This document shows, piece by piece, positions 6,810-62,093 of a stretch of DNA of 64,000 nucleotides. The position numbers and the translations under genes are program-made. The stretch is from NCBI GenBank assembly GCA_964016885.1, contig OZ024743.1, positions 171,306,001 to 171,370,000 on the forward strand, written 5' to 3'. The notes beneath the pieces are model-generated. The model ran no database searches, had not been told where the DNA came from, and saw only the letters and a list, made by a program, of their open reading frames with translations. This stretch comes from Eledone cirrhosa. Taxonomy: Eukaryota. Positions within the stretch are counted from its first letter, which is position 1. Each line of letters opens with the position of its first letter.

Positions 6810-8240
6810 TATGTATGTATATAAATGTATATATATGGGATAAGAAGTTATCGTTTTAGGTATTCCAGTTAGAGTTTGTGAGTACTCTGTATTGTGGATA
6901 GTTTTAACGTACGGCGTTGTTTGACTCAACAAGAGGTTTCCATAGTAAGGTAGCGAGTTCGCGAGAATTCCCATGCAGGTTATTCTTGGAGTAATAGTAG
7001 TGAAAGAGTGAAGAATTCATGGTCGGCTGTACAAAAAAGGTTTTATTTATAGTATTAACAATTGTTTTCATTGATCAGGTAAATCTAAAGGCCGCTAATC
7101 ACTCGAAGTTGCGTCACTAATTAAAATGTGTCACTAATTAAAATGCGCCAATAAAATCTGGCAGCTTAAGGACACCAACCAGGAATATGGGATTAGCTGG
7201 TCGAAATTATCGGGAGCAAGGGCCTACAGTAATGGAATGTCCCACTGCGGACTTTGTAATATGGAGCTGTTCCATATTTTAAAGTATGATAAAATGCTGC
7301 TTAACAACAAAATAGATCGATCAATTTTCTGTAGACACAAAGCAGCTACCAAGTTCTCTAACTTCAAACCGGCATAATTCGATCCAGCAATCTTAGAATT
7401 CAAGCAGAACCACCCGGATTTTAATGTACTAGCTACACAACACCCCACTGTTATTAGCTGTCATCTGACCAACTGGTCATTAAATCAACATCATAAATTT
7501 CCCAACCTTTCTTTCACTCTCTCTCCTTATAGCCACATCACCACCATTAAGATAAAACATTAACCACCCATATATCAACACTGCCCCTTTAACTTCTTAT
7601 TCTGCATTTATCTATCTACTCCTTCCCCGTCCTTAGCCCTACCCCTTATGTCATCATCCCCACTCACTGTCTTCTGTACCTTATCCCTTCCCCTCTCACT
7701 TAATTTTTATTTATTATTTTTTACCTTTCACTGTTATTTGTTATTTTTCATTTCTAAATTTTTTTACTCTAATATTCTGAGATTTGACCATTACATATGT
7801 ATTTAATCTTTCTTTTCATGTTATTGTTATCTCTACCGTTATCACTACTTTACACATACACTTACTCACCACTGTAACTTCAACTACCACCACCGCCACC
7901 ATTACTATTATCAGCAATCGTATCCTGTACTTATTTTTTACATCTTTATCATCCTCATTCTAACTTCTTTATTATTATCTGTTATTATCTTTTATTATTG
8001 ACGTTATAGTTTTTATTCTCCGATGTATCTATAAATACCAATGTCATGTGTTAAACCCTCCAGTATTCCGATGATTTGATCAGAGACACACACTGTATTT
8101 AAGGTCGGGTCACGCAACTTCGAGTGATTAGCGGCCTTTAAACTTACCTGAACAATGAAACAATTGTTAATACTGTAAATAAAACCCTTTTTGTACAGCC
8201 GTACAAAAAGGGTTTTATTCTTCTTTCTTTCACTACTATA
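6810..8240. mobile_element. PLE back-to-back insertion: inverted pLTR (-) plus EN C-terminus, 3'UTR and pLTR (+)
   Basis: 6993-7116 is an inverted copy of 8113-8240. The + strand 7150-7377 translates KIWQLKDTNQEYGISW...CGLCNMELFHIL...LLN...CRHK (PLE GIY-YIG tail). Degenerate hammerhead CCGATGA...GAAAC at ~8068-8162. Confidence 0.8.
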
Positions 8241-8379
8241 TATATATATATATATATATATATATATATATATATATATATATGTGAGTGTGTGTGTGTG
8301 TGTGTGTATATATATATATATATCTATGTGTATATATATATATATATCTATGTGTATATATATATATATATATATATAT

Positions 8380-8662
8380 TGTAGGTGATTCAGTGAATTA
8401 CAAGTGGTGTAATTACAACACAAGCACTCTATGCACAGGCAGAGTGTATATATTTGAAAAACACGAGGAGGTTTCGTTTACATGTATAAGATTTTTATTG
8501 TGTATCAACCTGTTACACGCGTTTCGCAGAGGATTGGCTCAAGGTCACTCATAGGAATTATTGACCCAACTCCATTATCGATCTGCTCATCAGACTGGTG
8601 ATGGGACATAAAAATAGTGTTTATTGTGGTGCCACCACCAGTAATTCACTGAATCACCTACT
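8380..8662. mobile_element. Miniature PLE pLTR inverted pair carrying a hammerhead ribozyme
   Basis: Terminal inverted repeat GTAGGTGATTCAGTGAATTAC (8381-8401 / 8641-8661), flanked by (TA)n on both sides. Confidence 0.7.
8509..8598 (-). ncRNA. Type I hammerhead ribozyme motif
   Basis: CTGATGA-GCAG...CTGC-GAAA-CGCGTGTA; stem III contains the palindrome ACGCGT. Confidence 0.65.
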
Positions 8663-8744
8663 ATATATATATATATATATTTATATATATATATATATAT
8701 ATATATATATATATATATATATATATATATATATATATATATAT

Positions 8745-60700: not shown

Positions 60701-61895
60701 TTGTCGGTAACGACAAGTTCAGCTTCCAGTAGCCGGGTCCTTGTCTATGGGTTCTATCAAGGTTGGCCATGCAGGTCACTAGTTTGTGATCTGAATAGGC
60801 AACCATGAACATTTGTGGACAGCTTAACATGTCCCTATCCTTATTTCTAACTAGAACCCTATCTAGGTACGATCTAGATGTTCCGCTACGATTACTCCAA
60901 GTCCACAGTGGCGCAGTCGGAAAATCTAGTCGATATCTATCGGCCAGGTCAAATCGGTCGATTAACTGTTTGAGGCTGTTACACCCCCCTTTATCGGGAC
61001 ATGCTCCCACATAGTCCCAACGTGCATCTACGATTCCATTCCAGTCCCCCACTAAAAGCAAGGAGCGGGACGTTCCCAGAAAAGTCTCTAGACGTTTGAA
61101 GAAGTCTGGCCGCGGTGTCCCGGATGGGGCATATGCGGCCACCAGCCTGAAGGCTCCACCTTCACTACCGTCAACGTCTAGGACCACTAGTCGACCCTCC
61201 GGGTCCAGATGTACCGTCTGTGTTACGAGGCCCTGGTGTTTCCGCAGCAAAACGGAAACTCCGCCCCCACCCGCCGGTTGACAGAGAGATGCGTAGATCT
61301 CAAAGTCATCGAAGATGGGGTCCAGCTGTCGCTCGCCGTGGATCCTGGACTCGCAAATGGCTACCACATCCATACTGTGCGACCTGAGGTCGTTTAAGAG
61401 TTTGCCCTGCTTCCAGGGCATCCCCAGGCTGCGTACGTTCACACATCCAACTCTTACATTGGCCATGTTGGTGCTTAAAAGTTAAAAGAGGAAAAGAGAT
61501 TACTCATCCTTCGCCTCCTGGGGACCAGGCCGCATGATTTCCATGGGGGTGTTGGAGGGGTTGTCTGGATGGGTGGTGGTTTCCGGCGGGGTGGGGACGC
61601 AGATGTTTGGTGGGGTGGGGTCTGGTGGGATGGGGGTATCTGGGGTGGGGAGGCATTTGAGAAGGACGCGGTTGAGTGGTTTCACGCAGGAATTACCCAC
61701 ATCCTTCTCAAATGTTTCTTTTAGGGACCTATAAGTTTGTATAGGGACCCTAATCAGTTTTAGGTTCAGTTTTTTGCTATTTTTAATAGAGTGGGCGAAA
61801 GTTTTCCCTTCGTTGAAAACCGAAGGGTCGTTCGTGATGGTCTCCATTAGTGTTTTGTTTTCAGTGTTTATGTAAGTGTAAGTGTAATTTTCTTG
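57795..61895 (-). mobile_element. L1/Tx1-clade LINE, 5'-truncated in ORF1; ORF2 nearly intact
   Basis: ORF1 tail at 61500-61895, then ORF2 APE-RT-zinc finger. The 3' UTR ends AATAAAGAAATATA into TA repeats. Confidence 0.9.
58036..61466 (-). pseudogene. L1/Tx1 ORF2 (APE endonuclease, RT, CCHC-like finger) with one frameshift near 60310
   Basis: NVRSL, GDWN, YLDR, SDH; KSPGLDG, DQSKAFD, IRQGCPLS, YADD; CPRC..EETV...HC. Confidence 0.88.
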
Positions 61896-61919
61896 ATATA
61901 TAGATAGATAGATAGATAG

Positions 61920-62093
61920 ATAACGAAGGAAATGTGGTAAGGAACCAGATGGAGCATAACGCACCAAAGTACTCAATACTTAGGGTAGTAGAGTGGGTAA
62001 TAGGAACGAGTAGGACCCCAACGGCTGAGCTCAAGCCGTTTCGACGGCTAATTCAGAATTTGCCGTAGAAACGGCTTCAGCTCAGCCGTTCCT
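61920..62093. mobile_element. PLE family 'A' fold-back mini-insertion
   Basis: Minus-strand family-A terminus plus the short inversion AACGGCTGAGCTCAAGCCGTTTCGACGG / CCGTAGAAACGGCTTCAGCTCAGCCGTT. Confidence 0.72.

What the first reader, a model, noticed from the sequence alone, without database searches (positions are those of the whole stretch)
6810..62093. Nearly every Penelope-like insertion is double-ended: two outward-facing 3' ends joined 5'-to-5', stopping at AT microhomology with (TA)n
Seen: back-to-back inverted pairs at 6810-8240, 8380-8662, 11930-12298, 30084-33420, 34172-35100, 35195-35430, 43381-49945, 42225/51098, 51131-51680, 52115-52462 and 61920-62093, from several unrelated families. 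Within a family the two arms often end at different internal AT motifs: ...AACAATAT versus ...CGAAATAT ~60 nt further on; ...TTCACTACTA versus an extension to the ORF start; ...ACCAATAT versus a 36-nt extension. Established: PLEs show inverted pLTRs and a microsatellite bias, and their RTs are related to telomerase. Inference: both 3'-OH ends of a cut in self-complementary (TA)n anneal to AU motifs in element RNA, each primes its own cDNA, and the two cDNAs are then joined. That would be a symmetrical, telomerase-like break-healing mode of integration.
Basis: partly seen in the sequence, partly recalled or inferred. Interest (0 to 1): 0.72.

Follow-up and report, generated by a model that had tools for sequence, protein, structure and literature searches.

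The report
Penelope insertions primed from both ends
Many Penelope-type jumping genes in this animal genome sit as two back-to-back copies inside TA repeats, a known layout, but almost every pair has one end with an extra tail and one without, which likely means each cut DNA strand starts copying the element's RNA at its own fixed site before the two copies are joined.

Summary
The pairs are real: they are Penelope-like elements (Neptune- and Hydra-type) joined head to head in (TA)n. One coordinate is wrong (30084 is not an end), and 'nearly every' overstates it. In one family 47 of 74 sampled insertions are double, about 60% after correction.

The layout (inverted pLTR, tail at one end) is published.
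- 106 of 111 typed same-family pairs combine one tailed and one untailed arm; none has two untailed arms.
- Ends sit at two fixed sites with 2-7 nt of AT homology. A better internal TATATATATA is used in at most 5 of 8,559 copies.
- Both arms share one source haplotype, and either arm can be the longer.

Best reading (0.62): both nicked strands prime reverse transcription on the same source RNA, one at each site, and the two cDNA ends are then joined. The element carries its own endonuclease, and I found no sign of telomerase-like repeat addition. My paper searches found no statement of this rule. Earlier unreviewed notes of this scan reached it on other DNA.

The parts
6833..8240 (.). Family D (Hydra-like EN end) head-to-head pair: left arm with ~165-nt tail (T), right arm EN + 3'UTR + pLTR with untailed end (N); hammerhead core in pLTR
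8380..8662 (.). Family H pair: one hammerhead-bearing arm plus a 22-30-bp inverted arm; both end at the same motif (exception to the T/N rule)
8745..9007 (+). Family A single arm, N end, TA on both sides; 5' limit at the family's run-off hot spot
11918..12312 (.). Family I pair, arms 71% alike, same end on both arms, degenerate hammerhead core (exception)
12485..12619 (+). Family C single tailed arm
12787..12934 (+). Family B2-like single arm between (TA)n and (TTC)n
27352..30108 (-). Family B2 (Hydra-type CxCX5C linker) RT-EN-pLTR; supplies the true left end of the '30084-33420' structure, in (TA)n
30109..33421 (.). Family B (Hydra-type): minus arm 31681-30109 (pLTR, part of tail, internally deleted RT-EN) joined at 31681/31682 to plus arm with N end in (TA)n
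33858..34136 (+). Family F single arm, tail-to-tail across (TA)n with the next pair
34172..35100 (.). Family F pair, N left, ~85-nt tail right; hammerhead
35187..35430 (.). Family C pair, N left, ~80-nt tail right
42223..51098 (.). Family E (Neptune-type, GIY-YIG PF01541) pair, 38-nt tail left, N right; family A pair nested in a TA run of its 3'UTR
43381..46340 (-). Family A left arm: partial inner pLTR, ORF N-terminus (46090-45401), internal deletion, EN, 3'UTR, pLTR and 59-nt tail (T end)
46341..49945 (+). Family A right arm: 5'-truncated ORF (Asn-rich insert, RT, CX4CxxC linker, GIY-YIG motif), 3'UTR, pLTR with hammerhead, N end
51129..51680 (.). Family G pair, N left, ~165-nt tail right; U3-A8-type hammerhead core
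52112..52464 (.). Family C pair, T left, N right
61918..62095 (.). Family C pair, T left, N right

Best explanation
These are endonuclease-bearing Penelope-like retrotransposons whose head-to-head insertions nearly always pair one tailed with one untailed arm, likely because the element's protein nicks both strands of (TA)n and starts one cDNA at each of two fixed sites on the same source RNA, after which the two cDNA ends are likely joined. Step 1 (inferred from the element's GIY-YIG domain and from published in vitro work on a relative): both strands are cut. Step 2 (shown as sequence pattern): the two sites flank the tail, which is 38-165 nt long depending on family; 2-7 nt of AT pairing sets the exact register, not the site. 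Step 3 (inferred): both polymerases copy overlapping RNA, by strand displacement on one molecule or on sister transcripts, and often run off the RNA 5' end. Step 4 (inferred): the cDNA 3' ends are joined by short overlaps or filler, and each then templates the other's second strand. When only one strand primes, a single arm results.
For: Tailed/untailed pairing in 106 of 111 typed pairs from six families; 86 of 89 without the tail-anchored family C, p=2e-22 against a free 50:50 choice. An unanchored family C sample gave 17 of 17. Genome-wide, 10,477 of 23,128 family A arms read through the first site. The untailed arm reaches further 5' in 19 of 40 pairs, the tailed in 14, and 7 are equal within 15 nt, so the tailed arm cannot be a fold-back copy of the untailed cDNA. 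Arms share diagnostic haplotypes: 17 of 24 pairs differ at 10% of sites or fewer, against 7% of random pairs; mean 0.09 against 0.49. They still differ at private sites, which argues against ongoing gene conversion. Nine ends in six families all carry 2-7 nt of AT homology (P=1.4e-4), and registers step along neighbouring TA dinucleotides. Junction overlaps of 2 nt or more occur in 20 of 30 flush junctions, against 16% expected. PMC11167929 (abstract, main text and first methods read) shows a relative cutting and extending both strands from two start sites that flank the tail.
Against: No intermediate was observed; every mechanistic step is inferred from genomic products. Overlapping arms need strand displacement or two RNAs, and tailed arms do not pile up at the untailed site. 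In L266 the tailed arm matches the inner unit of a tandem arm (80 sites against 6) while the untailed end is on the outer unit, so both primers are not always on one junction; in L271/272 the single arm differs from both units at 24 sites. Five pairs are tailed on both arms, and two window pairs have identical ends. 34 of 64 scored junctions have filler rather than overlap, some of it reference noise. PMC11167929 reports initiation without homology to the target, unlike here. Cross-family joints need a second RNA or a later deletion.
Confidence: 0.62

Rival explanations
1. One cDNA folds back and copies itself, or self-primes on an antisense template. The endonuclease then resolves the hairpin with a staggered cut at the two AT sites, leaving a tail on one side.
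For: Explains the shared haplotypes, the exact match of the L266 tailed arm to the inner unit, palindromic junctions and the nesting of short arms. Self-priming is proposed in PMC3846280 and EN-mediated resolution in PMC8557442 (passages read).
Against: Needs staggered cuts of both polarities at similar rates (19 against 14 of 40) and a stagger of 38-165 nt that differs by family. Deletions present in one arm only (L043, window family A) are not copied into the partner, though they could postdate insertion. Two RT start sites flanking the tail are shown in vitro for a relative (PMC11167929).
Confidence: 0.17
2. One reading: both ends of a break in (TA)n anneal independently to any AU motif of element RNA and prime symmetrically, as telomerase-like healing.
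For: AT microhomology at all nine typed ends. At least 5 of 74 family A insertions, plus cases in other families, join head to head with another family's arm, which fits two free RNAs.
Against: 0 untailed/untailed pairs among 89 where they could be seen. The best internal AU run is an end in at most 5 of 8,559 copies. Arms come from one haplotype. The element has its own endonuclease. No excess TA at 3' ends: median 22 nt against 43 nt at 5' ends in 23 single arms, p=0.30.
Confidence: 0.06
3. Classical twin priming on a tandem RNA: one primer at the terminal pLTR and the second at an upstream pLTR or tail, so the arms copy different repeat units.
For: L266 fits exactly. The window's family A arm shares a 14-bp duplication with the inner pLTR. 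Family F L169/170 has a short tailed arm at the run-off site beside a long untailed arm.
Against: Does not by itself give tailed/untailed pairing in both length orders. When one family A arm is long, its partner stops at the RNA-start hot spot in 0 of 13 pairs, against 9 of 19 when both arms are short (post hoc Fisher p=0.004).
Confidence: 0.12
4. The inversions are assembly artefacts, or arise from independent insertions fused by later deletion.
For: PLEs pile up in TA tracts. The cross-family joints and the 30108 switch could be deletion products. The window's own junction at 31681 was not spanned in the runs laid.
Against: Arms differ by private mutations, carry a tail on one side only, and host nested insertions. 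Short-read contigs of another sample hold antisense-to-sense joints of family B, by my reading of joints 30284-32001 and 31564-31900. Chance fusion would not give shared haplotypes.
Confidence: 0.03

Closest known systems
EN+ Penelope-like elements with inverted 5'-truncated pLTR and one-sided tail (PMC3846280, passages read; PMC8557442, passages and section 11 read)
   Same: Head-to-head inverted copy, tail at one end, (TA)n bias, no discernible TSD, palindromes at junctions, Asn-rich ORF inserts.
   Different: The passages read call the tail optional or 'often' one-sided and give no counts. Here it is near-obligate (106 of 111) and 38-165 nt long rather than 30-40, and both arms trace to one haplotype.
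Poseidon from Anolis in vitro (PMC11167929; abstract, main text and first methods read, supplements not opened)
   Same: Cuts and extends both strands of AT-rich DNA; two internal RT start sites flank the tail; predicted dimer.
   Different: Reports no homology between primer and template and does not link the two sites to the two strands of one insertion. Here the ends show 2-7 nt AT homology and the sites are coupled.
LINE-1 twin priming (recalled; only search listings seen)
   Same: Second target strand primes a second cDNA, giving a 5' inversion joined by microhomology.
   Different: L1 arms are non-overlapping parts of one RNA and the second site is free. Here the arms overlap and the second site is fixed.
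Telomerase and EN-minus PLEs (Athena, Coprina; PMC8557442 passages; telomerase mechanism recalled)
   Same: Related RT; short primer-template pairing at an internal RNA site.
   Different: These elements bring their own nuclease, copy long RNA once, and show no sign of repeat addition.

Membership tests
EN+ Penelope-like elements | Single ORF with RT and C-terminal GIY-YIG endonuclease | tested here: met
   Family A: RVT_1 E=3.5e-4, below the curated cut-off, plus DKSG, YVDD and VYIGET motifs. Family E: GIY-YIG PF01541 E=2.6e-7. Family B and B2 fragments had no Pfam hit and are assigned by motifs read by eye.
EN+ Penelope-like elements | pLTR carrying a hammerhead motif | tested here: met
   Core pattern found in 9 of 11 stretches scanned; none in the family E stretch or the left arm of family I. 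No hammerhead among the 150 of 205 Rfam rows shown. Cleavage not tested.
EN+ Penelope-like elements | Partial tandem or inverted pLTRs with optional tail | tested here: met
Neptune/Nematis clades | CX2-5CxxC linker before GIY-YIG | tested here: met
   Family A CIDKKCITC and family E CDRPNCGIC. No tree was built, so Neptune and Nematis are not separated.
Hydra clade | CxCX5C linker; CxxC and CxH beside the EN core | tested here: met
   Families B and B2 have the linker, read against PMC8557442 section 11. No tree built.
LINE-1-type twin priming | The two arms are non-overlapping parts of one RNA | tested here: not met
   Arms overlap in 36 of 40 family A pairs; 4 tailed arms are tail-only.
LINE-1-type twin priming | One target-site duplication flanks the whole unit | not testable with these tools
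   74 of 76 ends lie in 8 nt or more of TA, so a TSD cannot be told from the repeat.
Telomerase-like healing | Use of existing DNA ends without own nuclease | tested here: not met
   GIY-YIG domain present. Activity at preformed breaks not tested.
Telomerase-like healing | Repeated addition of a short template | tested here: inconclusive
   No excess TA at 3' ends in 23 single arms, p=0.30; small sample, and tracts change length after insertion.
Telomerase-like healing | Primer pairs with a fixed internal RNA site | tested here: met
   Fixed sites with 2-7 nt AT homology and register stepping; shown only as a genomic footprint.

The most novel reading that the evidence does not exclude
Penelope elements integrate by obligate two-headed reverse transcription: an asymmetric protein dimer loads the two nicked target strands onto two preset sites of one RNA, the trailing polymerase displaces the leading cDNA, and the two cDNAs prime each other, so no separate second-strand step exists. 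Free ends can capture another family's RNA, which makes chimeras.
Probability: 0.35. Interest if true: 0.75.

Novelty: new variant of a known kind. Interest (0 to 1): 0.5.

Why it matters
How Penelope-like elements make their inverted ends and one-sided tail is named as an open question in PMC8557442 and PMC11167929. The pairing rule, the shared source of both arms and the fixed sites turn it into a direct test: count tailed/untailed products from one in vitro reaction. It also matters for annotation. In this genome one family alone has over 23,000 exact pLTR ends, and short pairs look like MITEs or miRNA hairpins.

Tried and rejected
- Rfam scan: among the 150 of 205 rows shown, almost all are miRNA-type hits on hairpins and TA repeats and none reaches a gathering score; not used.
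- DNA-mode genome search with an 86-nt end found nothing because common words are skipped; exact patterns were used instead. Two patterns matched only the window copy and were replaced by arm-shared ones.
- TA-length test for repeat addition: negative.
- Stalling of tailed arms at the untailed site: no pile-up.
- Inner-versus-outer pLTR test: one clear case, one mixed, two uninformative.
- RNA fold of the pLTR-tail region is stable (z=-4.4) but showed no shared structure at the two sites that I could defend.
- No RNA holder listed. The window's own junctions were not tested with reads.
- No dimer prediction was obtained.
- Rows left out of the pairing count: B L111 (inverted internal piece, no pLTR end), C L163 (ambiguous), D L228 and L231 (atypical ends), A L270 and L274 (outer end not in the region); the duplicated L268 was counted once.
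- Seven paper searches turned up no statement of the pairing rule in the passages read. Subscription papers, such as the older Drosophila Penelope work, are not searched, and supplements of PMC11167929 were not opened.

Full report
SETTING. The window lies in a 3.0-Gb animal assembly. Its repeats look like octopus repeats to me, which is recalled and untested. I call the end of the pLTR 'N' (untailed) and the end of the extension into the ORF start 'T' (tailed). Family letters are my own.

OBSERVATION. Self-BLAST and the sequence confirm inverted arms at all 11 places. Ten are same-family head-to-head pairs ending in TA-type repeats: eight pair N with T and two have identical ends. The '30084' end is wrong. 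The family B arm switches at 30108/30109 to family B2, which ends in (TA)n at 27352. At least four single arms in the window were not listed. The 42223/51098 pair is real and has the family A pair nested in its 3'UTR.

IDENTITY. Family A encodes RT (weak RVT_1 hit), a CX4CxxC linker and a GIY-YIG motif; family E has a clear GIY-YIG hit. Families B and B2 have the CxCX5C linker described for Hydra. Hammerhead cores lie in 9 of 11 pLTR stretches scanned. These are ordinary EN+ Penelope-like elements and their short derivatives.

HOW COMMON ARE DOUBLES? A 32-nt family A end has 23,128 exact matches. Among the first 100, neighbours within 6 kb were head-to-head 26 times, tail-to-tail once and tandem twice. 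I fetched all 71 clusters and classified 74 insertions by eye. There were 42 same-family doubles, three of them with a partner arm of only 10-20 bp, and 5 joined head to head to another repeat family. Fourteen were single arms with TA on both sides, and 13 were single or unclear. That is 64% double, or about 60% by my hand correction for doubles being found twice. An unanchored motif count for family C gave 19 of 50, a lower bound. So doubles are common but not 'nearly every'.

THE PAIRING RULE. Typed same-family pairs were mixed (one T, one N) in 41 of 42 for A and 12 of 12 further A loci. The other families gave 6 of 6 (B), 20 of 22 (C, anchored on T), 6 of 6 (D), 11 of 11 (E) and 10 of 12 (F). 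The total is 106 of 111, with five T/T and no N/N; without C it is 86 of 89, p=2e-22. For pairs over 1.5 kb apart in B, E and F the middle was not seen, and pairing rests on orientation and distance. The unanchored C sample gave 17 of 17. Genome-wide, 10,477 of 23,128 A arms read through the N site. Independent, symmetrical priming predicts half mixed pairs and is rejected.

FIXED SITES, AT REGISTER. All nine ends with known read-through carry 2-7 nt matching (TA)n. Values were read by eye; the chance of 2 nt or more is 0.22 per end, and P for the sum is 1.4e-4. In family F the ends step along neighbouring TA dinucleotides. But the 10-nt TATATATATA inside the family A pLTR, present in 8,559 copies, runs into long TA in only 10, and 5 of these resume element sequence. 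Ends followed by short or broken TA would be missed by this test. Pairing therefore sets the register, while something else, probably RNA structure or protein binding, sets the site.

ONE SOURCE, TWO SYNTHESES. At 61 diagnostic columns the two arms differ by 0.09 on average (one pair misaligned by a deletion is included), against 0.49 for random pairs. They still differ at private sites, so conversion is not keeping them alike. The N arm reaches further 5' in 19 of 40 pairs, the T arm in 14, and 7 are within 15 nt (permutation P=0.003, limits typed). A T arm cannot be a fold-back copy of an N cDNA that lacks the tail. 5' limits pile up just upstream of or within the hammerhead region in each family (11 of 80 A arms in one 25-nt bin), probably the RNA start. 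Partners of long arms never stop there (0 of 13 against 9 of 19, post hoc), which suggests both primers usually use one pLTR-tail junction. Against this, in L266 the T arm copies the inner unit and the N end the outer unit.

CENTRAL JOINT. Of 74 junctions, 64 could be scored. Thirty are flush or overlapping, 20 of them by 2 nt or more (16% expected), and 34 carry 1-123 extra bases, some templated from nearby arm sequence and some reference noise. This fits end joining of two cDNA ends.

NOT AN ARTEFACT. Arms carry private mutations, a one-sided tail and nested insertions. Short-read contigs of another sample contain antisense-to-sense joints of family B, one of them in three runs of that one sample. 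The window's own junction was not spanned.

TELOMERASE-LIKE? The primer pairs with a fixed internal site, which resembles telomerase. But the nuclease is present, and TA tracts are not longer at 3' ends. It works like twin priming, not like healing.

COMPARISON. PMC3846280 (passages) describes head-to-head pLTRs, an optional tail on one of them and junction palindromes, and proposes antisense self-priming. PMC8557442 (passages, section 11) describes the same layout, the (TA)n bias and 'EN-mediated resolution'. PMC11167929 (abstract, main text, first methods) shows both strands cut and extended from two sites flanking the tail, without homology. PMC4209133 (passages) notes close opposite-strand hammerhead pairs. 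PMC13282606 and the 2026 retrozyme preprint (passages) add nothing on this point. The structure is thus known. The near-obligate pairing, shared haplotype and site-versus-register result were not found in seven searches. Earlier unreviewed notes of this scan report the same pairing on other DNA; that is not independent support.

VERDICT. Real, largely known in form, with a new quantitative rule that favours asymmetric dual priming (0.62) over fold-back with staggered resolution (0.17), twin priming on different tandem units (0.12), the symmetrical model (0.06) and artefact (0.03). Interest 0.5.

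Noticed in passing
L052, L085 (second insertion), L097, L191, L196, L198, L248; window 27352-33421: Head-to-head joints between arms of different hammerhead or PLE families; four typed cases are tailed/untailed and two tailed/tailed. 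L052 also switches between two PLE RT genes at a roughly homologous point. Could be second-RNA capture or later deletion.
   Followed up: partly
window 2216-3396, 35635-36250, 52495-53099, 53282-53590; L048, L091: An abundant non-coding TA-anchored repeat group with fixed 3' ends is joined head to head to family A arms in two loci; it may be mobilised by PLEs.
   Followed up: partly
window 33858-34454, 53512-53589; L196 flank: Near-perfect tail-to-tail palindromes centred on a (TA)n tract, the opposite geometry; origin unexplained.
   Followed up: no
window 45035-45377 and 46375-46690: In-frame Asn/Thr/His-rich insert in the family A ORF, recalling the N-rich inserts reported for Adineta Penelope elements.
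   Followed up: no
family A reference positions about 3374-3383 (L034, L035, L037, L045, L078, L082): A second pile-up of 5' limits at the 5' edge of the hammerhead.
   Followed up: no
window 13015-22226: Two tandem, 97% identical non-LTR elements (1141-aa RT ORF with a C-terminal nuclease-like region) in (TAT)n/(TTA)n tracts.
   Followed up: no
window 36657-42148: LTR retrotransposon with identical 226-bp LTRs and an open 1064-aa pol frame (RT, RNase H, integrase), inserted in a TA-rich tract.
   Followed up: no
L274/L275: A 35-bp tail-only arm joined to a multi-unit tandem array of near-identical family A copies.
   Followed up: no
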